Below are positions 434-11,114 of a DNA stretch of 12,359 nt, piece after piece (position 1 is the first letter of the stretch; each line of letters begins with the position of its first letter). Source of the stretch: Caedimonas varicaedens (GTDB lineage Bacteria > Pseudomonadota > Alphaproteobacteria > Caedimonadales > Caedimonadaceae); the NCBI GenBank assembly GCA_001192655.1, contig BBVC01000017.1, positions 1 through 12,359 on the forward strand, read 5' to 3'. The notes under the pieces are model-generated. The model saw only the letters and a list, made by a program, of their open reading frames with translations. It made no database searches and was not told where the DNA came from. A program made the translations under genes and the position numbers.

Positions 434-1843
434 CTAGGTTTGGAGCATTCTTTTTAATAAATCCAGGTCTTCTGTTAGAGAAGCATCTTTCTCCTTAAGC
501 TCTTCGACTTTTTTGACAGCATGCATAACAGTCGTATGATCACGTCCTCCGAATTTACGCCCAATCTCAGGCAAAGACATGGATGTCAACTGCTTGGCAA
601 GAAACATTGCAATTTGACGGGGACGCGCAACCGAACGCAAGCGACGCGGTGAGTGCATGTCTGCCAGCTTTACATTAAAATGCTCGGCGACTTTCTTTTG
701 AATTTCATCCACCGAAATACGCCGATCATTCGCACGCAATAAATCCCTGAGGACATCTGTTGCCGATTCAATCGTAATCTCTCGCCCAACAAGCATGGAA
801 TGCGCAACAATACGATTAAGAGCGCCTTCCAGTTCCCGTACATTTGACGTGATTTTATGCGCCAGAAACTCAAGAACCTTCAGTGGAACTTCTCGCCCTA
901 TTTGTTCGGTTTTGGACTGTAAAATACCCAGGCGTAACTCATAGGTCATAGGATGAATATCAGCCACAAGCCCCCAGCCCAGACGAGAACGCATGCGCTC
1001 TTCCAAACCTTCCAGATCGGAAGGAGATTTATCAGCTGAAATAATGACTTGATGATTCTGATCAACCAGCGCATTAAAAGTATGAAAGAATTCTTCTTGC
1101 GTTGATTCCTTGCCGCTAATGAACTGGAAATCATCAATCATCAAAACATCAACAGAACGAAACTGCTCTTTAAAAGCCATTGTATCCTTAAAACGTAAGG
1201 CTTTTACAAAAAGATACATAAATTTTTCAGCCGAAAGATAAATAACGCGCCGTTGCGGATAGGATTTACAAATATGCCATGCAATGGCATGCATAAGATG
1301 GGTTTTACCTAATCCTACCCCTCCGTACAAGAAAAGCGGATTAAAGGTCACTTTATCTGCTTCGGCGACCCGACGTGCAGCAGCATGAGCCAACTCATTG
1401 GATTTTCCCACAACAAAAGCCTCAAAGGTATAACGAGGTTCAAGACGAGAGCCAATAACTTGAATATTTCGATCTTCGGGTTCAGCTTGATCTTTGATTC
1501 TTGCTTCTGCACTTTCAACAGGGGAAGTTCCATTAAATGTTGAATTGGGTGTAACAATTAAATCAAGCGCCAAAATACGAGCATCAAAACGTTGAAGAAT
1601 TTCGAGCATTTTTTGAGAAAAATGTGACTGGATCCAGTCACGCCTAAAACGTGTGGGGGCTATAACAATCAGTCGACCAGAAATAAATTCGCCAAAGGTT
1701 AGGGGTGAAAGCCAACTTTTAAAGGTAGCATCACCAAACTCTTGTGAAAAAAGAGAGCGTGCATTTTCCCAGCATGCCGCCATCACTGACCCCAGTTCTG
1801 GATTCGATTCTATTTGAAGCGAGGTCACAGGCGACACTGACAT
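434..1843 (-). CDS. dnaA: Chromosomal replication initiator protein DnaA
   Basis: 469-aa ORF. It has Walker A GGVGLGKTHL, Walker B VLMIDDFQF, the AAA+ sensor/box VII region RSRLGWGLV, and the C-terminal DnaA signature IAMFLAKQLTSMSLPEIGRKFGGRDHTTVMHAVKKV. Its N-terminus has a typical domain-I pattern (FKSWLSPL...LIVIAPTRFRRDWIQSHF). Confidence 0.97.
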   Translation of the reverse strand: MSVSPVTSLQIESNPELGSVMAACWENARSLFSQEFGDATFKSWLSPLTFGEFISGRLIVIAPTRFRRDWIQSHFSQKMLEILQRFDARILALDLIVTPNSTFNGTSPVESAEARIKDQAEPEDRNIQVIGSRLEPRYTFEAFVVGKSNELAHAAARRVAEADKVTFNPLFLYGGVGLGKTHLMHAIAWHICKSYPQRRVIYLSAEKFMYLFVKALRFKDTMAFKEQFRSVDVLMIDDFQFISGKESTQEEFFHTFNALVDQNHQVIISADKSPSDLEGLEERMRSRLGWGLVADIHPMTYELRLGILQSKTEQIGREVPLKVLEFLAHKITSNVRELEGALNRIVAHSMLVGREITIESATDVLRDLLRANDRRISVDEIQKKVAEHFNVKLADMHSPRRLRSVARPRQIAMFLAKQLTSMSLPEIGRKFGGRDHTTVMHAVKKVEELKEKDASLTEDLDLLKRMLQT

Positions 1844-1982
1844 GGCAAGCCCACTTTTATTCTTTCGTTATATTTCCCCACAAATTTCTTAAATCTAAAG
1901 GGATTGCAATCAAAAACTATTGTTCAATAATTTCTTAACGAAAAGAGTGCAATTTGCCTTTTTTAATTTAATGGAAAGGTTT

Positions 1983-2243
1983 TTACAAAGCATTTATACG
2001 CGAAGCAAGTCGAGAAACTTTGCGCGATGCTGTATTTAAATGCAACACACCCTTACTCACACCGCGCATGATTTCAGGTTGAGCAATTTGCAAAGCCTTC
2101 TGGGCAACAGACTTGTCACCTGTACGAATAGCCTCTTCCACCTTCCGCACAAAAGTACGAACACGCATGATACGGGAATGATTGCGCGCTGTCTTCAGTA
2201 CTGATTGGCGCACACGTTTTTTAGCTGACTCAATATTTGCCAT
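1983..2243 (-). CDS. rpsT: 30S ribosomal protein S20
   Basis: 86-aa basic protein starting [14 protein letters not shown], the canonical S20 N-terminus. An AGGA Shine-Dalgarno sits just upstream on the minus strand. rpsT directly upstream of dnaA in the same orientation is a common alphaproteobacterial arrangement. Confidence 0.95.
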
Positions 2244-2280
2244 AATAATCCTTCTGCAACACTATTCAAAGCTAGGGTTG

Positions 2281-2309
2281 GTTATACACGAGTGTACGAA
2301 ACAGGTCAA
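2281..2309 (-). promoter_or_regulatory. Putative sigma70-type promoter for rpsT (-35 TTGACC, 17-nt spacer, -10 TATAAC)
   Basis: The minus strand reads TTGACC (2309-2304), then a 17-nt spacer, then TATAAC (2286-2281), about 38 nt upstream of the rpsT ATG. This is motif recognition only. Confidence 0.55.
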
Positions 2310-2438
2310 CCAGATGCTTTTAACATTCTTAAATTTTTAGTCTTCAGATGCAGGGTGGTGGGCGCTACACCATTTTCTGGACATCTGAACCCGCACTCAG
2401 CCTCACAGTCAAGTCTTAATTTTACACTCAATCAGGCA

Positions 2439-2460
2439 ATTCGTCATAAATTCGTCATAA
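2439..2460. repeat. Perfect tandem direct repeat, 2 x 11 bp (ATTCGTCATAA), about 110 bp upstream of the integrase start
   Basis: Read directly: attcgtcataa at 2439-2449 and again at 2450-2460. The period is one helical turn. The function is unknown; it could be an arm-type or operator site. Confidence 0.85.
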
Positions 2461-2572
2461 ACTGCCGAAGACTTTTTCAAAAGAATTGTTTTATTCCAGT
2501 GCTTTGGGAACTTTTCCTACATCATAATTTCGCCATAATCTTACGCAAAGAGACCTTGTGGAGGAATATCGT

Positions 2573-3754
2573 ATGAATCGTCAGAAACTCACCAATACCA
2601 TGATTGAAAAAGCTCAACCCAACGGCAAGGTTTATGCCTTGGCCGACTCTGTGGTTCCCGGTCTTCTGGTGTTTATTAATCCGTGTGGCACGAAAACGTT
2701 TTGTCTTCGTTTACAGAACTTCAGAAAAAAATTGGGCGTCTATCCTTATGACAAGATTCAGTCTGCCCGACAAAAAGGCATTGAATGCCATTCAGAACAT
2801 TTACAGGAGATCCGCATGAAAAATCAGCGCAAAGACGCGAACCTGACCCTATCCGTCCATAAACTCGTCGAGGAATACCTTGAGTTTAAGAAAAGCTCTT
2901 TGTCGGAGAAAACGTGGAAAGAATATGCCTATACTTGGAACAAGTGCGGACGAGATAAATTAGGTGACCTCTTTATCCCCGACCTCACCGATGCCCATGT
3001 GAACCAACTCTTTATTCAGCTCAAGGATACGTACTCTCATACGGAAACCCTGAAAATTATTCTTCTGGCAGCTTTTAAATATGGCAAACAGAAAGGCTAT
3101 CCTGTGGCTGTTTTGGATGGAGAAAGCTGGATACGTTATAAGCGACCTGTGAAGGAGCGGTATTTAACGTCAGGAGAACTCAGCATCTTTTCTGAGCTTA
3201 TGAAAGAACGCAAGGCGCGTTCTGTGACCTATGGCAAACTCCCTCAGCAAATTATCGCCATGGAGCTCCTTTTATATACAGGGTGTCGATGTTCCGAAAT
3301 TCTGGAGCTTAAATGGTCGGATGTTTTTTTCAAGGAAGGGTATATCCAGCTTTGGAAGACCAAGACGCGCAAGGGACGATTGGTTCCTTTATCGGATAAA
3401 ATTCGATCTTTGCTGACGGAAGCCCGTCAGTTTGAAAGTGGAGATTATGTTTTTACCTCGGTGACGGATGCCGACAAGCCCATCTCTTATAATACCTTTC
3501 AGACGGTTTGGTACAACTTGATGAAAGAGGGAAACTTTAACCAAGAGGGCGTTGAGCGCCTTCGGATTCACTCTCTGCGTCATACCTTTATTACGGCGGC
3601 TAATCGAAGCGGCATTTCCCCCTGGACACTGAAAGCGCTTGTGGGTCATTCCAACGGCTCTTGTGTGACGGGCGTTTACATCCACCATAATTTACAAGAA
3701 TTGACTCAAGCTCAGACGTCTATTATTGACGCCTTGCAGAAAGGGCAATATTGA
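2573..3754 (+). CDS. int: Tyrosine recombinase / phage-type (P4-like) integrase
   Basis: The ORF is open from 2558 (GTG), but ATG 2573 follows GGAGGA (2560-2565) at 7-nt spacing. The N-terminal arm-binding-type region is KLTNTMIEKAQPNGKVYALADSVVPGLLVFINPCGTKTFCLR. Catalytic motifs are YTGCRCSEILELKW (box I Arg), HSLRHTF (H-x-x-R), LVGHS, and TGVYIHH (Tyr nucleophile). Confidence 0.92.
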   Translation: MNRQKLTNTMIEKAQPNGKVYALADSVVPGLLVFINPCGTKTFCLRLQNFRKKLGVYPYDKIQSARQKGIECHSEHLQEIRMKNQRKDANLTLSVHKLVEEYLEFKKSSLSEKTWKEYAYTWNKCGRDKLGDLFIPDLTDAHVNQLFIQLKDTYSHTETLKIILLAAFKYGKQKGYPVAVLDGESWIRYKRPVKERYLTSGELSIFSELMKERKARSVTYGKLPQQIIAMELLLYTGCRCSEILELKWSDVFFKEGYIQLWKTKTRKGRLVPLSDKIRSLLTEARQFESGDYVFTSVTDADKPISYNTFQTVWYNLMKEGNFNQEGVERLRIHSLRHTFITAANRSGISPWTLKALVGHSNGSCVTGVYIHHNLQELTQAQTSIIDALQKGQY

Positions 3755-3766
3755 GATGCCCTTTTT
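3742..3766 (+). terminator. Weak candidate intrinsic terminator overlapping the integrase stop codon
   Basis: AGGGCA (3742-3747), a 9-nt loop, TGCCCT (3757-3762), with T5 at 3762-3766. The stem is short, so confidence is low. Confidence 0.35.
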
Positions 3767-3826
3767 CAACCTTTCTGTATCGCTCTTTTTTACCGGAAGA
3801 CAGGATAATCTCTCTGCGTTTGCTCT

Positions 3827-3852
3827 CTGCTTTTTCCCAGGGCAAAAAGCAG
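3827..3852. promoter_or_regulatory. Palindrome/hairpin CTGCTTTTT-N8-AAAAAGCAG, 44 bp upstream of the rep-like gene; candidate operator
   Basis: Perfect 9-bp inverted arms at 3827-3835 and 3844-3852. The spacer CCCAGGGC is itself partly self-complementary. No T-tract follows on either strand, so it is unlikely to be a terminator. Confidence 0.35.
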
Positions 3853-3895
3853 GACGAAAGAGGGACGTGTTGTCTTCACAGAAAGGCAGGGTGTC

Positions 3896-6070
3896 ATGAC
3901 CTTTGTGCCGCGTTCTCTCAAGCGCGCTGTTTTACGGGAAGAGTTTGTGGCTCTGACGGGGGATGCTTTTCAGGCGATTATTCTCAACCAGTTTATCTAC
4001 TGGGTGCAGAAAGTTTCTGACTTTGATGATTTTATTCGGGAAGAGCAAGCGCGGAATCCTGATTGCAACGTCTCTTTACGGCATGGGTGGATTTATAAAA
4101 AAGCCCAGGAGATGATCGACGAGACCATGCTGCAGATGTCCGATATTACCATGAGACGAATGATTAAGGCTCTTGTGGAAAAGGGCTGGATTGAGGAACG
4201 TCCTAATCCTGACAATCGATGGAACAAGGTTCTTCAGTATCGTCCTGATCTGAAGAAGATCCAGCATGATCTTTATTCTCTGGGATATGCCTTACCCGGA
4301 TTCCCTCTTTTACAGCCTGTTTCGCCCTCTGAAGCCTCGAACCTTCAAAATGAAGTCTCGAACCTTCAAAATGAAGCTTCGAACCTTCAAAAATCGAGTT
4401 TCATATTAAAGGATTCAGAGACTACAGCAGAGATTACAGCAGAGAGGAACGCTGACACGCCCGCGGATGTTTCAAAAGCCATGATCCATACCTGGAATCG
4501 TGTTTTGTGTCCCCCTGTTTTGGTTCAGCTGACAACGGAAAGGTCTCAGCGCCTTCAGGCTTTGTTGCAGGAGCATTTTGAGAACAAGCTAGACCTGTGG
4601 TCATCGTTTTGCCAGGAAATCACCCGCAGTTCGTTTCTCATGGGCAAGGGTCAGCGGGGATGGCGTGCGGGACTGGACTGGGTTTTAATCCCTGCTAATT
4701 TTCAAAAAATACGGGAAGGCAATTACCGGGATGCAGATCCTTCTCCTGACGGCTCAGGAGAAGAAAAGCTGTCATCGGAAGAACTCAAGCTCAAGGTGGA
4801 TGCCCATCTTGAAAGCCTTGAGGATCCTCTGTCCCGACAATTTTGTCGTGGGCTTTTGCGCCATCTTCGCGGGGACAAGTTTTTATTCTGGTTTGGACAG
4901 GCATCTTGGGGCGGATGGGATTGTGGAGAGCTTGTGTTGTCTTTTCCGTCAAAAGCCGCCCGAGATTACGTGGAGCGTCATTTTAGCTCGGAGATCGGTG
5001 TTGCCGCACGCTCTGTGTGTCCTGACCTCAAAAGCCTGAGTCTCACCGTTCAGCAAACAATCCAGCACTCTCAACTCCCTGTATCTCCTGCTTTTTCCTT
5101 GCCCTCACCCGCCACGGGAGATCAAAACCAAGGAAAAAATATTTCTTCCTCTCACGGCTTGAGAGCCGTTGAGGTTCCTCACAGCCAGCTGCCAAGTCTC
5201 ACCACAGAGGGGGAATTTGATCTGTCGCAGCAGAGCTTGGCGGAATCTGACCTCCAAGAGATAAATCCTCAGGGAAACGGTGAAGATCGAGAGACTCAAT
5301 TCTCCAGATCAACATCATCCCCTTTGAAGGGATCCCATACGTCTCCCCCAAACACGCAAGCTCTGGAATTTGCAGAAGATTGCTTGCCCGTGAGCGATAA
5401 GGCCTCTCAACCCTTCTTGTCTGCTTTGCAGACCGGAGAGCATGGCAAAGAAAGGCTTGTGAGAGATGATGCTTTGCTTGGGAGAATTTTCTCATGGGAT
5501 GATGGTACCTCTCCTGTCCAAGAGGGGGTGCGTTCTCCTGCTCCCACCACTTTACCCTGGACTTCTGCGGAAGATCAGGCAGACTCGTTGTTGACGCCCT
5601 GCTTTGTCTCGGGAGAGCAACCTGTTTCCCCGACACATGCTGCTCCCTTGTCTTTACACCGTCATGCTGTTCCGTGCGCAGACTCTCTTGGAGAGAATGC
5701 GTCAGGAAATGCCCGACAAACATGCCCCACGACATCCTCTGTCCTCTCTCAAGAATCCCGTCATCTTTGTTCGCCAAGGAGGATGCCTGTGATCCGTGAC
5801 GAATCCCGTCACGTCTCTTCCTTATCAGGGAAGATAAAACCTTCTGCCAGGGAAGAAGGCCTGCCTTTTGTGCAGGACTCTTACGTTGACAGAAACGGGC
5901 GTGACCCATTTTTAAGGGTGTCGTCCGAAGAGCGCACTCATTCCGTTCATTCGTCACCTTTATCCCTCCCTTCTGTCCAAGAGAATCCCTGGAAACGGCA
6001 TGTGACGGGATTACTCGCCGCTTGCTTGCCTTCTTCTGCCAACCCTCTTATGGAAAGGAATCTGTCATGA
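3896..6070 (+). CDS. Multi-domain replication-initiator-like protein: N-terminal winged-helix-like region, heptad repeats, a phage/plasmid replication-organizer-like middle segment, a DnaA-domain-I-like segment, and a long disordered Ser/Pro-rich tail
   Basis: An uninterrupted 724-codon ORF, too long to arise by chance. aa 1-135 contain ...MSDITMRRMIKALVEKGWIEER (wHTH-like). aa 190-278 end in FLMGKGQRGWRAGLDWVLIPANFQKIREGNY. aa 310-386 (GDKFLFWF...GELVLSFPSKAARDYVERHFSSEI...LSLTV) align by eye with the N-terminus of the host DnaA in this window (GDATFKSWL...GRLIVIAPTRFRRDWIQSHFSQKM...LDLIV). The product name is inferred. Confidence 0.75.
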   Translation: MTFVPRSLKRAVLREEFVALTGDAFQAIILNQFIYWVQKVSDFDDFIREEQARNPDCNVSLRHGWIYKKAQEMIDETMLQMSDITMRRMIKALVEKGWIEERPNPDNRWNKVLQYRPDLKKIQHDLYSLGYALPGFPLLQPVSPSEASNLQNEVSNLQNEASNLQKSSFILKDSETTAEITAERNADTPADVSKAMIHTWNRVLCPPVLVQLTTERSQRLQALLQEHFENKLDLWSSFCQEITRSSFLMGKGQRGWRAGLDWVLIPANFQKIREGNYRDADPSPDGSGEEKLSSEELKLKVDAHLESLEDPLSRQFCRGLLRHLRGDKFLFWFGQASWGGWDCGELVLSFPSKAARDYVERHFSSEIGVAARSVCPDLKSLSLTVQQTIQHSQLPVSPAFSLPSPATGDQNQGKNISSSHGLRAVEVPHSQLPSLTTEGEFDLSQQSLAESDLQEINPQGNGEDRETQFSRSTSSPLKGSHTSPPNTQALEFAEDCLPVSDKASQPFLSALQTGEHGKERLVRDDALLGRIFSWDDGTSPVQEGVRSPAPTTLPWTSAEDQADSLLTPCFVSGEQPVSPTHAAPLSLHRHAVPCADSLGENASGNARQTCPTTSSVLSQESRHLCSPRRMPVIRDESRHVSSLSGKIKPSAREEGLPFVQDSYVDRNGRDPFLRVSSEERTHSVHSSPLSLPSVQENPWKRHVTGLLAACLPSSANPLMERNLS
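4331..4393. repeat. Three tandem 21-bp direct repeats (GAAGyyTCGAACCTTCAAAAw) inside the rep-like CDS; iteron-like
   Basis: Units lie at 4331-4351, 4352-4372 and 4373-4393. The units differ at positions 5-6 (cc/tc/ct), and the final base of unit 3 is a rather than t. They encode (E)ASNLQN / (E)VSNLQN / (E)ASNLQK. The 21-bp period equals two helical turns. A locally AT-rich stretch follows (aaaaatcgagtttcatattaaagg). Confidence 0.9.
4423..4445. repeat. Second short tandem repeat, 2 x 11 bp (TACAGCAGAGA) with a 12-bp period, 30 bp downstream of the 21-bp repeats
   Basis: tacagcagaga is at 4423-4433 and again at 4435-4445. It encodes TAEITAER. Confidence 0.8.
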
Positions 6071-6468
6071 GTCTCAACCGCATTTGTCTTTTAGGCCATG
6101 TGGGAAAAAATCCCCAATTTTATCAAACATCCATCGGTGACGCTTACGCCCGTTTTTCGTTAGCAACGCAGGAATCCTGGAAGGATGCCCAGGGAAACAA
6201 GCAAACCCGCACCCAGTGGCATTCTGTGGCGGTGTTTTCTCAAGGTCTCGTGGAGATTGCCCGACAATACCTGAACAAGGGCGCTTATGTCTTTCTGGAG
6301 GGGATGCTCCATTATCGTCAAGTCCTCACCGATGACGGACGGGAATATCCCGTTGCAGAAATCCTGCTTAAAAATCCACGCAGTGTTTTACGTATTCTCC
6401 AGCCCGGCAAGACAGTTGCATCTGTCCCCGAGGAGCATTCCACAGAAGAGGCCTGTCATGATGCTTAA
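6067..6468 (+). CDS. ssb: Single-stranded DNA-binding protein (short form, no canonical acidic C-terminal tip)
   Basis: ATG 6067 overlaps the stop of the upstream gene (ATGA). The N-terminus MSLNRICLLGHVGKNPQFYQTSIGDAYARFSLATQESWKD...TQWHSVAVF...ARQYLNKGAYVFLEGML is a typical SSB OB-fold pattern. The protein is 133 aa and ends ...EEHSTEEACHDA. Confidence 0.85.
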   Translation: MSLNRICLLGHVGKNPQFYQTSIGDAYARFSLATQESWKDAQGNKQTRTQWHSVAVFSQGLVEIARQYLNKGAYVFLEGMLHYRQVLTDDGREYPVAEILLKNPRSVLRILQPGKTVASVPEEHSTEEACHDA

Positions 6469-6609
6469 CACGCGAGACCAAGAACTCTCATTTGTTTCAG
6501 ATTCAGGGGCTTTTGCCCTGTCCTCTCCTTTGCGCGAACGGTACGCGCGAAGAACAGGCGTGCTGGCTTTTCCATTCCGTCACACGCCGTTTGACCTCCC
6601 TGTAAACTT

Positions 6610-6714: not shown

Positions 6715-7890
6715 ATGACCATGTCTGATTCCCTGCCTCAACGGGGTGGTTCTGCAATGCCTTTCTCTCCGGGGAAACCCTTTTCCCTGATTTCTCTTTT
6801 TTCCGGTGTGGGGGGCATGGACAGGGGATTTGAAAAAGCAGGCTTTAACATCCTCTGGGCGAACGACCGGGATCAAACTGTGATACCCTCGTATACGTCT
6901 TTCTTTCCCTATACCGTTTTTGACAGCCGTTCCCTCCGGGATATTTCTGGAACAGAACTTCCCAAAGCAGCTGGCGTTATTGGCGGGCCACCCTGTCAAT
7001 CATGGAGTGCGGGGGGTGCGCGCAGGGGAATTCATGACCCTCAAGGTCAGCTTTTTGAGGACTACCTCCGCGTCCTTCATCACGTTCAACCCCTGTTCTT
7101 TGTGGCAGAAAACGTCCCAGGACTGATTCAGGGTAACAACAGAGCGTTCTTTCACCAGATGCTTCAGAGGATGGAACAGGAAGGGTACCTGGTGACTTGG
7201 AAAGTCGTGAATGCTCATGATTATGGCGTTCCCCAAGACAGGAGGCGGGTCTTCATCGTGGGGTATCATCACTCCCTGAATAAAGGATTTGTCTTTCCTC
7301 CTCCCCTGTCGTGCAGACCCACTTTAAGAAACGCTATTTTTGACCTCCGACGACTGAAGATCGGCGCTTCTCGTAAAGTTGCTAACCATGATCTTTTTGT
7401 CTCCGGTTATTCCCCTCGTTTCATGAGCCGAAACCGCGTGCGTCCGTGGCACAAACCCTCCTTTACCATTCTGGCGTCTGCGCGCTTTATCCCCCTTCAT
7501 CCCCAATCCCCTGTGATGGTTTCAGGCAAAGAGGGAAAGACGAAGCAATTTGCCCCAGGTCATGAACATCTCTATCGCCGTTTAACAGTACGGGAATGCG
7601 CCCGCATCCAGACCTTTCCCGATGATTGTCATTTTATCTACACCCATGTCAGACACGGCTACCGCATGGTGGGGAATGCCGTTCCTGTAGAACTGGCTTT
7701 TCATCTGGCCAGAGCGATTCGGACAGATCTGGAACAATATCAACACACGGAACAAAAAGAGGCCGTTTGCCAAACGCAGCACCCCTTCACCACAGAGGCG
7801 CGTCCTGATGTTTTACCGGAACGCTTCGAGAACTCTGGCATCATCTCCACCAACACTTCTTCTCAAACAACCCAAAGAGAGGACGCATGA
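6715..7890 (+). CDS. DNA (cytosine-5)-methyltransferase, M.HaeIII/M.NgoPII-like
   Basis: All C5-MTase motifs are present: I LFSGVGGMDRGF, IV GGPPCQSWS, VI FVAENVPGL, VIII QDRRRVFIVG, IX RRLTVRECARIQTFPD, and X GNAVPVELA. The variable region FMSRNRVRPWHKPSFTILASARFIPLHPQSPVM closely resembles my recollection of M.HaeIII. Confidence 0.93.
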   Translation: MTMSDSLPQRGGSAMPFSPGKPFSLISLFSGVGGMDRGFEKAGFNILWANDRDQTVIPSYTSFFPYTVFDSRSLRDISGTELPKAAGVIGGPPCQSWSAGGARRGIHDPQGQLFEDYLRVLHHVQPLFFVAENVPGLIQGNNRAFFHQMLQRMEQEGYLVTWKVVNAHDYGVPQDRRRVFIVGYHHSLNKGFVFPPPLSCRPTLRNAIFDLRRLKIGASRKVANHDLFVSGYSPRFMSRNRVRPWHKPSFTILASARFIPLHPQSPVMVSGKEGKTKQFAPGHEHLYRRLTVRECARIQTFPDDCHFIYTHVRHGYRMVGNAVPVELAFHLARAIRTDLEQYQHTEQKEAVCQTQHPFTTEARPDVLPERFENSGIISTNTSSQTTQREDA

Positions 7891-9023
7891 TGCCCCTGAA
7901 TCCTCACAGTCCTTTCACGTTCATCGATCTGTTTGCCGGTATCGGGGGCATGCGCCAAGGGTTTGAAGAAAAAGGCGGACGCTGTGTGTTGGCTTGCGAG
8001 AAAGATCCTCACGCCCAAACCACCTATGATGCCAATTATGCCTGTGAGGATCATCCTGTCGTGGGTGATATCACGCTTCTCTCTCCCCAGGAGATTCCGC
8101 CTCACGATCTTTTGTTGGCAGGGTTTCCCTGTCAGCCCTTTTCTCAGGCGGGACTACCTTCCCGTCAACGTCTGGGCAAACACACCGGTTTTGCCTGTCC
8201 TTCTCAGGGGTCGCTGTTTTTTGAGATCGCGCGTGTTCTCCAGGTTCATCGTCCCCGAGCCTTTTTACTGGAGAATGTGAAGAATCTTCTCACCCATGAT
8301 CAGGGACGCACGTGGGGTCTTCTTCTGCAAACCTTGTGCGCTGATCTGGGGTACTCTGTCCAAACCCGTGTTCTCAATGCCCGCTTTTGGGTTCCCCAAC
8401 ACAGAGAGCGGGTCTTTATCGTCGGATTTGCCCAGGAAACAGAGTTTGATTTTTCAGCCCTGACCATTCCCTCGATGGATCCTCTGCCGTGCCTTCAGGA
8501 TATTCTTCATCGTGAAGATGGCTCCCAGGAAGCTGAAGCGCCCTATACCCAGGGCAAGAAAGCCAAGGTTTCAGAACGGTATACCCTGTCTGACCGGTTA
8601 TGGTCTTCCCTTCAGCGTCATGCCCGCAAACACCGAGAGAAAGGTCATGGCTTTGGGTATCACTTGACCCCTCGAGAGGGGGTTGCCCACACGCTGTCTG
8701 CCCGTTACGGCAAAGACGGCTCTGAAATCCTCATCCCTCAACCGGGCAAAAACCCCCGACGCCTGACACCGCGGGAATGTGCGCGCCTTATGGGATTTGA
8801 TGCGCCCAAAGAGAGCCGGTTTCGCATTCCCGTTTCAGATACTCAAGCCTACCGGCAGTTTGGCAATGCCGTGGTGGCGCCTGTGGCGGGAGCCATTGCC
8901 TCTCATATGGCGCCATGGATTCAGAGGGGGAAGGCAAACCATGAGCCTTTCTCATCACCGCAAGAAGAAAAACCTTTGTCTTGTCCCGCGTCTTTCTCTT
9001 CTTCTCAGGAGTATTTTTCATGA
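7887..9023 (+). CDS. dcm: DNA (cytosine-5)-methyltransferase, Dcm/M.EcoRII-like
   Basis: The start overlaps the upstream stop (ATGA). Motifs are I LFAGIGGMRQGF, IV GFPCQPFSQAG, VI LLENVKNL, VIII PQHRERVFIVGF, RRLTPRECARLMGF, and X QFGNAVVAPV. The segments HTGFACPSQGSLFF, KHREKGHGFGYHL, TLSARYGKDGSEILI and FRIPVSDTQAYRQFGN match my recollection of E. coli Dcm almost block for block. Confidence 0.93.
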   Translation: MMPLNPHSPFTFIDLFAGIGGMRQGFEEKGGRCVLACEKDPHAQTTYDANYACEDHPVVGDITLLSPQEIPPHDLLLAGFPCQPFSQAGLPSRQRLGKHTGFACPSQGSLFFEIARVLQVHRPRAFLLENVKNLLTHDQGRTWGLLLQTLCADLGYSVQTRVLNARFWVPQHRERVFIVGFAQETEFDFSALTIPSMDPLPCLQDILHREDGSQEAEAPYTQGKKAKVSERYTLSDRLWSSLQRHARKHREKGHGFGYHLTPREGVAHTLSARYGKDGSEILIPQPGKNPRRLTPRECARLMGFDAPKESRFRIPVSDTQAYRQFGNAVVAPVAGAIASHMAPWIQRGKANHEPFSSPQEEKPLSCPASFSSSQEYFS

Positions 9024-9325
9024 ATTCGACGTTTCCCTCCCTGACCTTTCTTCTGTTTCGTACGTGTGTGTCAGAACCGCAAAGAGTTATTTCTTCCTGC
9101 GTCATTCTGGTGACGGCTGTGGCGGCCGGTGTCGTTTATGCAGGCGTTCCCGTTCTCGTGGGCTTTTTGCTCTCTCTGACGGTGCTGCTTGTGATCGTGA
9201 ACATCCTTTCTTCTTCTGTGTCAACCCTGACAGAACAGCAGGACAAGGTTCTCAAGTCTGTTTTGCTCCCTCTGCTTTATCTTTCCCCCTTTCTTGTTTC
9301 AAGGAGAATGCGTGATGAACCGTAA
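9020..9325 (+). CDS. Small hypothetical membrane protein (about 101 aa, predicted 2-TM hairpin) directly preceding traL
   Basis: ATG 9020 overlaps the M2 stop (ATGA) and follows AGGAG (9007-9011) at 8-nt spacing. It has a continuous hydrophobic core, VISSCVILVTAVAAGVVYAGVPVLVGFLLSLTVLLVIVNIL. No motif was recognised. Confidence 0.6.
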   Translation: MNSTFPSLTFLLFRTCVSEPQRVISSCVILVTAVAAGVVYAGVPVLVGFLLSLTVLLVIVNILSSSVSTLTEQQDKVLKSVLLPLLYLSPFLVSRRMRDEP

Positions 9326-9614
9326 AGAACACCGTATTTATCAATATCTCTCGGAACCCCTGAGATTGATGGGACTCACCGTGGACGAACTTGTTCTGGG
9401 CGGCGGGGGTCTGCTGGGCTGTTTGTTTGCGGACAGCTTTCTGGTCAAGACGGGGTGCGGGATTGTAGGCATCGGGGGCGTCTTTGCCCTCAAGAAGTTT
9501 AAAAAGAGCGTCTCGGGATTTTCTCTGGGTTCTTTTCTTCATTGGTATGGGGGCATTATGCCCGGACGACCCTTTGCCTGGCCACCTTCTCACAAAAGGT
9601 TCTGGCTGTCATGA
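9315..9614 (+). CDS. traL: F-type conjugative transfer system protein TraL
   Basis: ATG 9315 follows AAGGAGA (9301-9307). The 99-aa protein matches the F TraL pattern: YQYLSEPLRLMGLTVDELV (compare YRFPETL...GLPLDEL), KKFKKSVSGFSLGSFLHWY (compare KKLKKGRGSSWLRDLIYWY), and the C-terminal P.S.KRFW. Confidence 0.85.
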   Translation: MNRKEHRIYQYLSEPLRLMGLTVDELVLGGGGLLGCLFADSFLVKTGCGIVGIGGVFALKKFKKSVSGFSLGSFLHWYGGIMPGRPFAWPPSHKRFWLS

Positions 9615-10171
9615 ATCTGAAACACTTTTCCCATACCCTGTCACGGATGATCAAACAGCGCAACTTTTCAGCCTTGGTCACCGTTGTGTTGCTGGCCAGC
9701 AATCTCTTGCTCTGCGTCAAGGTGGTGAATCAAGACGATCACTGGGTCATTATCCCCTGGCCGGAAACAGACCGCCGTCTTCCCTTGAGTCGTCACAATC
9801 TCACCGATCGGTATCTCATTGATTGGGCAGATGGCTTGACCAGTCGTCTGTTGACCATGAATCCCCAAACAGCGGATCAGCGTCTTTATGAGTTTCTGCT
9901 CATCACCGAAAGCTCGGGTACCATCGAGGCCAAACTCAAAAAACAGGTCGAAACTCTGAAGAGCGAGAACATCAGCACGGCTTTTTATCCCCGAGAGTAT
10001 GCCGTGAAGAAAGACGCCCGTCAGGTCTGGGTCACAGGGGATTTCCATACCTTCTTCGGCAAGGACAAGAATCCGGTCATTCAAAAGAGAACAGTGGTCT
10101 TGACCTATAGCACCAATGGCAAGGGATGCATTCTCGTGAAACACTTTTTTTATGAGGGAGAACATGACTAA
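9611..10171 (+). CDS. traE: F-type conjugative transfer system protein TraE
   Basis: ATG 9611 overlaps the traL stop (ATGA). It is 186 aa with an N-terminal TM segment (FSALVTVVLLASNLLLCV). The C-terminal block ISTAFYPREYAVKKDARQVWVTGDFHTFFGKDKNP parallels F TraE (SAFFQTS..V....GRVEIRGVLKTWIGDSKP). Size and gene order fit. Confidence 0.85.
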   Translation: MNLKHFSHTLSRMIKQRNFSALVTVVLLASNLLLCVKVVNQDDHWVIIPWPETDRRLPLSRHNLTDRYLIDWADGLTSRLLTMNPQTADQRLYEFLLITESSGTIEAKLKKQVETLKSENISTAFYPREYAVKKDARQVWVTGDFHTFFGKDKNPVIQKRTVVLTYSTNGKGCILVKHFFYEGEHD

Positions 10172-11114
10172 AACAGATATTTTTTTACAGATTCTCTTCC
10201 CCCGGAGACGCAAGCTTGAGGGAAGGGTGAGGAACGACCGCGCTTCTGTAGGGTGGATAAGAAATCTCCCCCATGGTCGCAAGCGTCAACGATTTTCCCT
10301 GGGAAAGTTCAGAACCGCAGGAAGAAACATGGCTCTTGTGATGCTCATGGGATTGATGCCCGTTTATGGGGCTGTTCCCCTGAATGATACGGCGGTGATG
10401 GACGTCAACATCTCCCGCAAGGGATTGACCCGTCTGTCGGTCAAAGGGGACGGGATTCAGGATATTTTTGTCTATCCCGTGATATCGGGAGAGGTGGCTC
10501 TGCAGGATGCGGTTCAGCTTCACAAGAGCGGTCATGTCTTTATGGCGCCCGAGGGGATCAAGGAGCCTTTTTATCTCACCGTGATCACCCAAAAAGGACA
10601 CGTTCAGGATTTAAAAATCTCTCCTATGACCCAACAGAGCGTTCCCCTGATTCTGACTCTTCCTGAATCTCCCCAAGACCCTCATGACGCTCTTCAGCAA
10701 GAACGGAACGTTCTGGAGAAATATCTTCTGTCTGCCCTTCAGGGCATTCCGCCCAGAGGATTTACACAACTCTCTCTCTCGGACGCCTCATCTCGCCAGA
10801 TCGGGAATCTTGCCGTGACGCCCCTCCATCTCTACGGGTCAGACCGATATCTCCTGAGTGTGTGTGATCTGGAGAACACAGGGGAGCAAGACCTGACCCT
10901 GATGGCCGAGAGTTTTCTGTCGTCTTCTGATTTGGCGGTGGTGTTCGAGCGTCCCGTTCTGACGCCTCAGAGCAAAATCCGTATGGTGATTGTCAGCCCT
11001 CGTCACGAGGGTCTACCTGTTCTTTCAGACGACAACCCTGTTCTGACCGAACCTTTATCACCCTCACCGTCACCATCATCCTCACCCCCAACAATAAAAG
11101 GAGACCCTGAATGA
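10164..11114 (+). CDS. traK: F-type conjugative transfer system protein TraK (secretin-like/VirB9-analogue); start uncertain
   Basis: The frame is open from 10152. ATG 10164 follows GAGGGAG and overlaps the traE end. ATG 10329 follows AGGAAG and would give 261 aa beginning at the signal-like MALVMLMGLMPVYGA. The body (VNISRKGLTRLSVKGDGIQDIFVYP ... DLAVVFERPVLTPQSKIRMVIV) fits the TraK pattern and its position after traE. Confidence 0.75.
   Translation: MTKTDIFLQILFPRRRKLEGRVRNDRASVGWIRNLPHGRKRQRFSLGKFRTAGRNMALVMLMGLMPVYGAVPLNDTAVMDVNISRKGLTRLSVKGDGIQDIFVYPVISGEVALQDAVQLHKSGHVFMAPEGIKEPFYLTVITQKGHVQDLKISPMTQQSVPLILTLPESPQDPHDALQQERNVLEKYLLSALQGIPPRGFTQLSLSDASSRQIGNLAVTPLHLYGSDRYLLSVCDLENTGEQDLTLMAESFLSSSDLAVVFERPVLTPQSKIRMVIVSPRHEGLPVLSDDNPVLTEPLSPSPSPSSSPPTIKGDPE

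What the first reader, a model, noticed from the sequence alone, without database searches (positions are those of the whole stretch)
3896..5053. The island initiator-like protein carries a DnaA-domain-I-like module and sits next to the host dnaA
aa 310-386 of the 724-aa protein (nt 4823-5053) show the DnaA N-terminal domain pattern. They can be aligned by eye with the host DnaA encoded 2 kb away: GDKFLFWF against GDATFKSWL, GELVLSFPSKAARDYVERHFSSEI against GRLIVIAPTRFRRDWIQSHFSQKM, and LSLTV against LDLIV. DnaA domain I mediates self-oligomerisation and contacts with the DnaB helicase and DiaA/HobA-type partners. The island protein lacks any AAA+ or DnaA-box-binding domain and instead has an N-terminal winged-helix-like domain. 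It also has a middle segment ending FLMGK..GW.AGLDWVL.P.NF.KIREGNY, which is reminiscent of phage/plasmid replisome-organizer proteins. A plausible model is an element-specific origin binder that uses a DnaA-domain-I mimic to recruit the host helicase, or to titrate host DnaA partners.
Basis: partly seen in the sequence, partly recalled or inferred. Interest (0 to 1): 0.72.

Follow-up and report, generated by a model that had tools for sequence, protein, structure and literature searches.

The report
Mobile-element replication initiator with DnaA domain I
The 724-residue island protein is a phage/plasmid-type replication initiator whose origin repeats lie inside its own gene and which carries a real but diverged copy of the DnaA N-terminal domain, a combination that is common on mobile elements, while its position next to the host dnaA is an accident of insertion.

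Summary
Residues ~311-386 of the 724-aa protein (nt 3896-6070) are a DnaA domain-I-like module. Evidence: Pfam DnaA_N at 23.7-27.8 bits (cut-off 24.6), a family profile that hits solved DnaA domain I structures, BLASTP against the neighbouring host DnaA (E 2e-6), and an AlphaFold model (pLDDT 89) whose best PDB matches are DnaA domain I and then DciA.

Residues 1-285 are a complete phage-type O/DnaD-like initiator: a winged helix plus a helical domain. Residues 387-724 are a disordered tail.

I also found three 21-bp dyad repeats (4330-4392) plus 12-nt repeats inside the gene's linker. They are conserved at the same place in more than 20 homologues, so the origin probably sits in the initiator gene, as in phage lambda.

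The same int-rep-ssb-methylase-tra module is inserted at other chromosomal sites elsewhere, so adjacency to dnaA means nothing. Full-length homologues sit on all four plasmids of Ca. Paracaedimonas acanthamoebae. Of 78 sampled proteins carrying this domain, only 9 are true DnaA and about 30 share this architecture. Rickettsia plasmid DnaA-like proteins (DALPs) are an already described analogue.

Helicase recruitment is plausible but untested, and the E. coli Trp6 and Phe46 equivalents are lost here. Verdict: a new variant of a known kind, of moderate interest.

The parts
3896..6070 (+). Gene for the 724-aa initiator-like protein (stop included). Its TGA overlaps the ssb ATG (ATGA at 6067-6070).
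   Evidence: ORF. Homologues at 71-76% identity (P0001-P0005) and down to 32%. The gene has the same position in related elements.
3938..4279 (+). N-terminal winged-helix domain (aa 15-128), the presumed iteron-binding domain.
   Evidence: AF2 pLDDT 80-94 with a helix-helix-strand-strand pattern. phrog_22444 E 6e-24; replication-initiation and DnaD-like PHROGs 6493, 9773, 428 and 270. Weak MarR hits. Foldseek wHTH hits.
4310..4459 (+). Coding sequence for the disordered linker (aa 139-188), which contains the repeats.
   Evidence: AF2 pLDDT 29-40.
4330..4392 (.). Three tandem 21-bp dyad-symmetric repeats, TGAAG-YY-TCGA-AC-CTTCA-AAA. Putative iterons of the element's origin.
   Evidence: TRF score 112. 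3 matches against 0.01 expected. 21-bp repeats at the same gene position in more than 20 homologues, with lineage-specific arms around a TTCGAA centre. DNA identity to the distant homologue L042 is 86-90% here against 49% gene-wide.
4416..4445 (.). 2.5 copies of a 12-nt repeat, CAGAGAYTACAG, just after a locally A+T-rich stretch. A possible unwinding or second binding element.
   Evidence: Similar 12-13-nt ACAGAGAATACA repeats follow the 21-mers in many homologues. GC is 0.33-0.38 at 4340-4440 against 0.50 for the gene.
4460..4735 (+). Middle helical domain (aa 189-280) with the FLMGKGxxGW..LDW....N..K..EGNY motif. This is the C-terminal module of phage O-like/DnaD-like replication proteins.
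   Evidence: phrog_10469 E 2e-17, phrog_19658 E 1e-14, phrog_345 E 2e-13. tblastn hits to phage 'replication protein O', 'replisome organizer' and 'primosomal protein I'. BFVD Foldseek hits spanning about 300 columns. No Pfam or PDB sequence hit.
4775..5053 (+). DnaA domain-I-like (KH-like) module, aa 294-386. The Pfam-matched core is aa 315-372 (nt 4838-5011).
5054..6067 (+). Fast-evolving Pro/Ser-rich tail (aa 387-724), probably disordered, with a conserved last ~30 residues (PWK..V.GLL..CLPSS....ERNLS).
   Evidence: Tail length and sequence vary among close homologues while the end motif is kept. No family hits. pLDDT is below 50 from aa 388 to the end of the 400-aa model. Residues beyond 400 were not modelled, so disorder there is inferred from composition and variability.
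6067..6468 (+). Element-encoded SSB, translationally coupled to the initiator gene.
   Evidence: Pfam SSB E 1.3e-24. The same 4-nt overlap occurs in L034 and L035, and ssb lies adjacent in L043.
2558..3754 (+). Tyrosine integrase of the element.
   Evidence: Phage_integrase E 1e-29 and Arm-DNA-bind_3.
2356..2380 (.). Approximate left end of the element, where homology to the L035/L036 copies begins.
   Evidence: GC rises from about 0.40 (host) to about 0.50.
9294..11114 (+). traL, traE and traK, the start of the F-type type IV secretion operon of the element.
   Evidence: Pfam TraL, TraE, TraK_N and TraK_C.
1592..1777 (-). Domain I (aa 23-84) of the host chromosomal DnaA, shown for comparison. 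Not part of the element.
   Evidence: Pfam DnaA_N E 4.8e-15 with Bac_DnaA and Bac_DnaA_C in the same protein. 72% identical to Ca. Nucleicultrix DnaA and 71% to Ca. Paracaedimonas DnaA.

Best explanation
The gene encodes the replication initiator of an integrative conjugative element (tyrosine integrase plus F-type T4SS, resembling the Rickettsiales RAGE elements). The host is a Holosporales-like alphaproteobacterium.

Proposed mechanism:
1. Dimers of the N-terminal winged helix bind three 21-bp dyad iterons that lie inside the initiator's own coding sequence, in the part that encodes a disordered linker. This is the arrangement of phage lambda O and ori-lambda.
2. The adjacent A+T-richer stretch with 12-nt repeats is where the duplex opens.
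3. The O/DnaD-type helical domain and the appended DnaA domain-I-like KH module supply the protein-protein contacts, and possibly weak ssDNA contacts, that assemble the complex and bring in the host replicative helicase DnaB. The module thus takes over the job that domain I has in DnaA, or that a separate lambda-P/DnaC-type adaptor has in phages.
4. The translationally coupled SSB covers the unwound DNA.
5. The result is that the excised circular element, or a plasmid form, can replicate on its own.

Status of each step:
- Shown: the domain identities, the iterons and their conservation, and the gene contexts.
- Inferred: iteron binding, autonomous replication, and above all the partner of the DnaA-like module.
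For: Domain I homology and fold.

Aa 1-285 is a full phage-type initiator: PHROG 'replication initiation O-like', 'DnaD-like helicase loader' and 'replication initiation protein' families at E 1e-10 to 1e-24. Foldseek hits to phage replication initiators and replisome organizers cover about 300 columns. tblastn hits phage O, replisome-organizer and primosomal proteins.

Intragenic iterons: 3 x 21 bp at 4330-4392. Equivalent 21-bp dyad repeats at the same place in more than 20 homologous genes, with different arms per lineage. The iteron/12-mer stretch is the best conserved DNA of the gene against a 49%-identical homologue, although it encodes a disordered linker. There is a local GC dip.

Replicon context: intact full-length homologues (484-486 aa, DnaA_N E 1.9e-10) on all four plasmids of Ca. 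Paracaedimonas acanthamoebae. A split copy lies upstream of traL-C on the Rickettsiales Ac37b plasmid. ssb is coupled or adjacent. No P/DnaC-like loader gene follows the initiator in the window.

Precedent: Rickettsia plasmid DnaA-like proteins carry a C-terminal DnaA_N, and the dnaA-like plus parA region supports autonomous replication of shuttle vectors (PMC4316617, PMC3244465).

Background on domain I: it contacts DnaB in E. coli, and DciA, a helicase loader, has the same KH-like fold (PMC5448010; DciA structures rank 4-5 and 13).
Against: - No experiment exists on any member of this family.
- In the window's clade the residues equivalent to E. coli DnaA Trp6 and Phe46 are Ser and Ala, and Glu21 is Lys. 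The E. coli DnaB/DiaA contact surface and the dimer patch are therefore not conserved. More distant homologues keep Trp and Phe.
- In the branch found in Alphaproteobacteria MAGs the third domain has diverged beyond Pfam detection, so its function tolerates much change.
- Whether the element carries its own helicase or loader further downstream is unknown, because the window ends in the tra operon.
- The Paracaedimonas plasmids may have other replication genes that I did not exclude.
- The repeats could also serve as operators for autoregulation.
Confidence: 0.65

Rival explanations
1. The DnaA domain-I-like module is a decoy. It binds host proteins that normally dock on DnaA domain I (DnaB, DiaA/HobA-type factors, or DnaA domain I itself). 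It thereby delays or redirects chromosomal initiation in favour of the element, rather than building the element's own replisome.
For: The module is a true homologue of domain I. Domain I is a hub for regulators, and a prophage protein (YfdR) is known to target it (PMC5448010).
Against: The module is covalently tied to a complete origin-binding initiator with intragenic iterons. It also occurs in the candidate initiators of plasmids. It is only 29% identical to the host domain and lacks the Trp6 and Phe46 equivalents. The same fusion is found across many unrelated hosts, which fits a constructive role better than a host-specific decoy.
Confidence: 0.1
2. The protein is mainly a winged-helix transcription factor (JGI annotates close homologues as MarR family). 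It controls the downstream ssb-methylase-tra genes, and the 21-bp dyad repeats are operators. In this reading the DnaA-like domain is only an oligomerisation module.
For: Weak MarR/HTH Pfam hits and the JGI names. The gene always lies just upstream of the tra operon. Dyad-symmetric sites are typical operators.
Against: Much stronger matches to replication-initiator families over both the N-terminal and middle domains. The repeats lie inside the coding sequence, not in a promoter. The protein sits on plasmids, and ssb is coupled. Autoregulation by iteron-binding initiators is common, so this role may coexist with initiation rather than replace it.
Confidence: 0.1
3. The module works through nucleic acid rather than protein contacts. 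As a KH-like fold related to DciA, it binds the single-stranded DNA exposed next to the iterons and stabilises the open complex or guides the helicase onto it.
For: DciA structures are among the best fold matches (8a3v, 7ykm). E. coli domain I binds ssDNA weakly and DciA's DUF721 binds ssDNA (PMC5448010, PMC12547741). The protein-contact residues are lost in this clade.
Against: No sequence match to DUF721 in Pfam. ssDNA binding by DnaA domain I is weak and of unknown relevance (PMC5448010). This is a variant of the main explanation rather than an alternative to replication.
Confidence: 0.15

Closest known systems
DnaA domain I (Pfam DnaA_N, PF11638; structures 2E0G, 4TPS, 2WP0, 2JMP)
   Same: Homologous sequence and the same predicted alpha-alpha-beta-beta-alpha-beta KH-like fold. 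The invariant Trp (E. coli W25) and Pro43 are kept.
   Different: The module is not at the N-terminus of an AAA+ initiator. It is preceded by an extra helix and by an O/DnaD-type initiator, and followed by a 340-aa disordered tail. The Trp6, Glu21 and Phe46 equivalents are not kept in this clade.
Rickettsia plasmid DnaA-like proteins (DALP; e.g. pRPR WP_012737730, pRAM18/pRAM32 dnaA-like), and the DnaA_N genes of Orientia RAGE and Megaira/Torix plasmids
   Same: Non-AAA+ proteins of plasmids or conjugative elements in intracellular alphaproteobacteria that carry a DnaA_N domain. They are linked to autonomous replication and associated with F-type tra genes (PMC4316617, PMC3244465, PMC10732058, PMC9098888).
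   Different: Only the DnaA_N domain is shared. BLASTP similarity is limited to 44 aa at E 0.046, there are no PHROG hits on DALP, and the middle-domain profile does not match DALP. DALP has the domain at its very C-terminus and is paired with parA. Here the gene sits in an integrase-bearing element and is paired with ssb.
Phage lambda O-type and DnaD-like replisome organizers (PHROGs 345, 19658, 10469, 6493, 428, 270)
   Same: N-terminal winged helix plus C-terminal helical domain. The origin repeats lie inside the initiator gene in the linker-coding part. That lambda has this arrangement is established knowledge; for this family.
   Different: An extra DnaA domain-I-like module and a long tail. 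No P/DnaC-type partner gene follows. None of the PHROG families covers the DnaA-like part (protein 4).
DciA (DUF721) helicase loader/operator
   Same: KH-like fold resembling DnaA domain I. It is among the best structural matches and is the loader type expected in alphaproteobacteria (PMC9825169, PMC8216460).
   Different: No sequence-level match to DUF721. DciA is a small stand-alone chromosomal protein with a disordered DnaB-binding tail.

Membership tests
DnaA_N domain family (PF11638) | Score at or above Pfam's gathering cut-off (24.6 bits) | tested here: met
   23.7 bits on the 724-aa protein (just below), 25.4 on aa 1-400, 27.8 on the domain alone. Relatives reach 40.7 bits, and 11 of 11 members match. 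This is a marginal pass for this sequence and a clear pass for the family.
DnaA_N domain family (PF11638) | KH-like alpha-alpha-beta-beta-alpha-beta fold of DnaA domain I | tested here: met
   AF2 domain model at pLDDT 88.9. The top Foldseek PDB hits are 4tps and 2e0g, with 2wp0 and 2jmp in the list, at TM up to 0.77. This is a prediction, not an experiment.
DnaA_N domain family (PF11638) | Functional residues of E. coli domain I: Trp6 (dimer), Glu21 and Phe46 (DnaB/DiaA) | tested here: not met
   Ser313, Lys328 and Ala353 at the aligned positions. Trp and Phe are kept in the Paracaedimonas, Ac37b and DALP homologues and in the host DnaA. These residues are not universal even among DnaA proteins (PMC5448010).
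Chromosomal initiator DnaA | AAA+ domain III (Bac_DnaA) and DnaA-box-binding domain IV (Bac_DnaA_C) | tested here: not met
   No such hits at E up to 1. The host DnaA in the same window has both.
Rickettsia DALP | Homology over the N-terminal part, not only over DnaA_N | tested here: not met
   BLASTP and hhalign against the pRPR DALP find only the DnaA_N segment.
Lambda O-like / DnaD-like replisome organizers | N-terminal winged-helix origin-binding domain homologous to these families | tested here: met
   PHROGs 6493, 9773, 428 and 270 at E 1e-4 to 1e-10, and phrog_22444 at 6e-24. BFVD Foldseek E down to 1e-8.
Lambda O-like / DnaD-like replisome organizers | Conserved C-terminal helical domain | tested here: met
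   PHROGs 10469, 19658, 345, 5810 and 22470 at E 1e-10 to 2e-17 on aa 186-309. tblastn to phage O, replisome-organizer and primosomal proteins.
Lambda O-like / DnaD-like replisome organizers | Iterons (origin) bound by the protein, often inside its own gene | tested here: inconclusive
   Repeats of the right kind are present and conserved. Binding and origin activity cannot be tested with these tools.
Lambda O-like / DnaD-like replisome organizers | Adjacent helicase-loader or adaptor gene (lambda P, DnaC/DnaI-like or DnaB-like) | tested here: not met
   The next genes are ssb, a small ORF and two C5 methyltransferases. Downstream of 12359 is unknown.
Iteron-plasmid Rep proteins (Rep_3 / RepA / pi / TrfA type) | Match to the Rep_3-type tandem winged-helix families | tested here: not met
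   No such Pfam or NCBIfam hit at E up to 1.
DciA (DUF721) | Sequence match to DUF721 | tested here: not met
   There is a fold resemblance only. Pfam lists no DUF721 hit.
RAGE-like integrative conjugative element | Integrase plus F-type T4SS genes in one island with a distinct composition | tested here: met
   int, traL, traE, traK and a pilin-like gene. GC 0.50 against 0.40 for the host. The same module occurs at three different chromosomal sites. The right end and the relaxase were not seen because the window ends.

The most novel reading that the evidence does not exclude
Fusing DnaA domain I to an O/DnaD-type origin binder may be a general and so far undescribed way for plasmids and conjugative elements to do without a lambda-P/DnaC-type adaptor. 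On this reading the initiator itself presents the surface that the host DnaB (with DciA) recognises on DnaA. Hundreds of mobile-element initiator families in DciA-type bacteria would then load the host helicase the way oriC does. Such proteins would give a minimal, separable system for studying DnaA-domain-I-dependent helicase loading.
Probability: 0.3. Interest if true: 0.6.

Novelty: new variant of a known kind. Interest (0 to 1): 0.4.

Why it matters
It shows how one class of conjugative elements and plasmids of intracellular alphaproteobacteria probably replicates. The initiator is of the lambda O type, carries its origin inside its own gene, and has an appended DnaA domain I.

If that domain really recruits the host helicase, these proteins would be simple tools to dissect helicase loading in bacteria that use DciA rather than DnaC.

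The gene plus its internal iterons would also be a candidate minimal replicon for building vectors for Holosporales and Rickettsiales-like symbionts, as the DALP/parA region already is for Rickettsia.

The work also removes a misleading lead, namely the proximity to dnaA.

Tried and rejected
- tRNA scan of the window found none. Rfam at E up to 0.1 on 1800-6600 found nothing.
- The exact-sequence look-up of the 724-aa protein found it is not on record.
- Promoter and terminator consensus scans on 2200-6600 gave no more hits than shuffled sequence.
- The third large protein search, with a middle-plus-DnaA_N profile (A10), returned only 8 proteins and no Orientia or Rickettsia links. Cluster look-ups gave no organism names.
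- The middle-domain profile had no significant hit against PDB sequences or against Pfam.
- Homology to the Rickettsia DALP beyond DnaA_N was rejected.
- The idea that the island's domain was recently captured from the host dnaA was rejected. It is only 29% identical to the host, and the Paracaedimonas plasmid homologue aligns to this DnaA at about the same significance (21% identity over 68 aa, E 6e-6).
- The idea that adjacency to dnaA is functional was rejected because related elements sit at other insertion sites.
- NC_007110 (R. felis pRF) is not in the plasmid collection.
- I did not check whether the Paracaedimonas plasmids have other replication genes.
Full report
**Layout of the window.** The window holds host genes and then an inserted element.
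- The host genes are dnaA (434-1843, minus strand) and rpsT (1983-2243, minus strand).
- The element runs: tyrosine integrase (2558-3754), the 724-aa protein (3896-6070), ssb (6067-6468, start overlapping the previous stop), two C5 cytosine methyltransferases (6715-7890 and 7887-9023), then traL, traE, traK and a pilin-like gene.
- GC rises from about 0.40 to about 0.50-0.54 across the junction.
- Homology to two other copies of the element starts at about 2356.
- The host DnaA is 72% identical to that of Ca. Nucleicultrix amoebiphila and 71% to that of Ca. Paracaedimonas acanthamoebae. The host is therefore a Holosporales-like alphaproteobacterium.

All quoted peptides are present and the coordinates are right.
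- Pfam DnaA_N matches aa 315-372 with E 4e-5 at 23.7 bits, just under the 24.6 cut-off. It scores 25.4 bits on aa 1-400 and 27.8 bits on the excised domain.
- All 11 family members tested match DnaA_N, best E 2.8e-9.
- A profile of the domain finds solved DnaA domain I chains: 4tps_B at E 4.4e-4, plus 8btg, 2z4r and 2e0g.
- An AlphaFold2 model of aa 290-392 has mean pLDDT 88.9 and pTM 0.76. It shows one extra N-terminal helix followed by helix-helix-strand-strand-helix-strand.
- Its best PDB matches by Foldseek are DnaA domain I of B. subtilis and E. coli (TM 0.63/0.77, rmsd 2.0 A over 75 columns). Next come V. cholerae DciA, then H. pylori and M. genitalium DnaA domain I and D. radiodurans DciA.
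- The model of aa 1-400 gave the same top hits.

**The rest of the protein.**
- In the 400-aa model, aa 15-128 form a winged helix, aa 139-188 are disordered, aa 189-275 are helical, aa 294-386 are the DnaA-like module, and confidence falls below 50 from aa 388 on.
- PHROGs place aa 6-160 in phage replication-initiator and DnaD-like loader families (E 1e-4 to 6e-24). They place aa 186-285 in the C-terminal part of 'replication initiation O-like', 'replication initiation protein' and 'DnaD-like helicase loader' families (E 1e-10 to 2e-17). No PHROG covers the DnaA-like part.
- Foldseek against viral models aligns about 300 columns to phage replication initiators, replisome organizers and DnaD-like proteins.
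- tblastn finds phage 'replication protein O', 'replisome organizer' and 'primosomal protein I' for aa ~170-280 only.
- The middle domain has no Pfam or PDB sequence match.
- No AAA+ or DnaA domain IV is present.
- The tail (aa 387-724) varies in length and sequence even among 75%-identical homologues, but it ends in a conserved motif.

- Nucleotides 4330-4392 are three tandem 21-bp units, TGAAG(C/T)(C/T)TCGAACCTTCAAAA (TRF score 112; 3 matches against 0.01 expected). Each is a dyad centred on TTCGAA.
- They are followed at 4416-4445 by 2.5 copies of CAGAGAYTACAG. The repeats lie in a stretch of GC 0.33-0.38, in a gene of GC 0.50.
- They encode the disordered linker (SNLQNE x3).
- TRF on the homologous genes of more than 20 loci finds 2-6 copies of a 21-bp (or 42-bp) unit at the same position. 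The arms differ by lineage: TTTACATTCGAATGTAAA, TGAAAC.TCGA.GTTTCA, TTGCTTCGAACGAAAG. All are dyads around TCGA, and most are followed by 12-13-nt ACAGAGAATACA repeats.
- The Paracaedimonas and Ac37b plasmid genes have two copies at 21-bp spacing.
- Against the distant homologue L042 (49% DNA identity overall), the repeat region is 86-90% identical, the best conserved DNA in the gene. This points to selection on the DNA itself.
- The arrangement matches phage lambda, whose origin iterons lie inside the O gene between the parts encoding its two domains (established knowledge).

**Context elsewhere.**
- The same int-rep-ssb-methylase-methylase-tra module lies next to ybaB/recR and tRNA-Val in L034, and next to a peptidase gene in L035. 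Adjacency to dnaA is therefore an accident of insertion.
- More distant homologues also sit directly upstream of traL-E-K-B-C, often with ssb.
- Intact full-length homologues (484-486 aa; DnaA_N E 1.9e-10) are on all four plasmids of Ca. Paracaedimonas acanthamoebae.
- On the plasmid of Rickettsiales bacterium Ac37b the protein is split into two ORFs just upstream of the tra operon.
- In Alphaproteobacteria MAGs the third domain has diverged beyond Pfam detection (4 of 25 proteins match). It still aligns to the window's domain by profile-profile comparison (probability 79.5%, E 1.5e-5).

**How common the domain is outside DnaA.**
- An exhaustive HMMER search with the domain profile found 1572 cluster representatives at E up to 0.001. 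In most of the best 150, the domain sits at the C-terminal end of 200-570-aa proteins or in small stand-alone proteins.
- Of 78 hits scanned, 77 match DnaA_N and only 9 have the DnaA ATPase domain.
- About 30 of the 78 match the same O-like/DnaD-like PHROG families as the window protein. The fusion is therefore widespread and not confined to ICEs.

**What the literature already describes.**
- The only protein shared by all Rickettsia plasmids is a 'DnaA-like protein' with a variable body and a C-terminal DnaA_N domain (PMC4316617).
- The dnaA-like plus parA region supports autonomous replication of shuttle vectors (PMC3244465).
- Orientia RAGE elements carry 10-23 DnaA_N genes (PMC10732058), and Torix Rickettsia and Megaira plasmids have them too (PMC9098888).
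- The pRPR DALP (779 aa, annotated 'DnaA N-terminal domain-containing protein', DnaA_N E 2.8e-13) shares only that domain with the window protein.

**Residue-level comparison.**
- E. coli Trp25 and Pro43 are conserved (W332, P350).
- Trp6, needed for domain I self-association, is Ser313. Phe46, which with Glu21 contacts DnaB and DiaA (PMC5448010), is Ala353. Glu21 is Lys328.
- The Paracaedimonas, Ac37b and DALP homologues and the host DnaA keep the Trp and the Phe.
- So the window's clade has a diverged surface, and a direct copy of the E. coli contacts cannot be assumed.

**Interpretation.**
- The best reading (about 0.65) is an element-encoded, lambda O-type, iteron-binding replication initiator. 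Its appended DnaA domain-I-like module provides assembly contacts, helicase-recruitment contacts, or both, and SSB is made from the coupled downstream gene.
- The absence of a P/DnaC-type gene after the initiator fits the idea that the module substitutes for such an adaptor, but this is inference.
- Rivals are a decoy of host DnaA partners (0.1), a mainly transcriptional role (0.1) and an ssDNA-binding role of the KH fold (0.15, a variant of the main model).

**Verdict.** The kind of protein is already known in outline (DALPs, and database entries named 'DnaA N-terminal domain-containing protein'). The O-like chassis with intragenic iterons in a RAGE-like element of a Holosporales-like host is a new, uncharacterised variant.

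Noticed in passing
window 4330-4392 and 4416-4445; same gene position in L001-L020, L034, L035, L037-L039: 21-bp dyad tandem repeats (putative iterons), followed by 12-13-nt repeats, lie inside the initiator gene's linker-coding part. They are conserved in position across the family, with lineage-specific arms around a TTCGAA centre.
   Followed up: yes
window 2356-2557: The element's left end starts with TGGTGGGCGCTACACCA, which looks like a tRNA 3' end although no tRNA gene is present. Upstream of int lie paired (T/C)CATAA-type repeats: AATTCGTCATA x2.2 at 2438-2461 and TTCGCCATAAT at 2529-2539. These also occur in L035/L036 and may be arm-type recombinase sites. The L034 copy abuts tRNA-Val.
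   Followed up: partly
window 6067-6468: The element's SSB starts inside the initiator's stop codon (ATGA). It ends in ...PEEHSTEEACHDA, which does not look like the usual acidic D-D-D-I-P-F tip (recalled from memory, not tested).
   Followed up: no
window 5054-6067: The 340-aa Pro/Ser-rich tail evolves very fast, but its last ~30 residues (PWK..V.GLL..CLPSS....ERNLS) are conserved among close homologues. This could be a short docking motif. A 252-aa reverse-strand ORF (5199-5957) overlaps the tail and is probably spurious.
   Followed up: partly
window 6715-9023: Two full-length C5 cytosine methyltransferase genes lie in tandem with a 4-nt overlap. They are conserved in L035/L036 and broken into fragments in L034.
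   Followed up: no
L039 4432-5609 (Rickettsiales bacterium Ac37b plasmid): Here the initiator is split into two overlapping ORFs. One encodes the winged helix and the other encodes the middle domain plus DnaA_N. Several MAG loci (e.g. L004, L005, L010) also seem to have the N-terminal part in another frame. This may be a frameshift or a natural two-gene form.
   Followed up: partly
P0187 (569 aa): This protein has five matched stretches of the DnaA_N-like profile, so it carries tandem DnaA domain-I-like repeats. Many 74-160-aa stand-alone DnaA_N proteins also turned up.
   Followed up: no
L042 versus window 4340-4444: An element whose initiator is only about 50% identical keeps nearly the same iteron and 12-mer sequences (86-90% identity). 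The two elements might therefore share origin specificity or incompatibility.
   Followed up: partly
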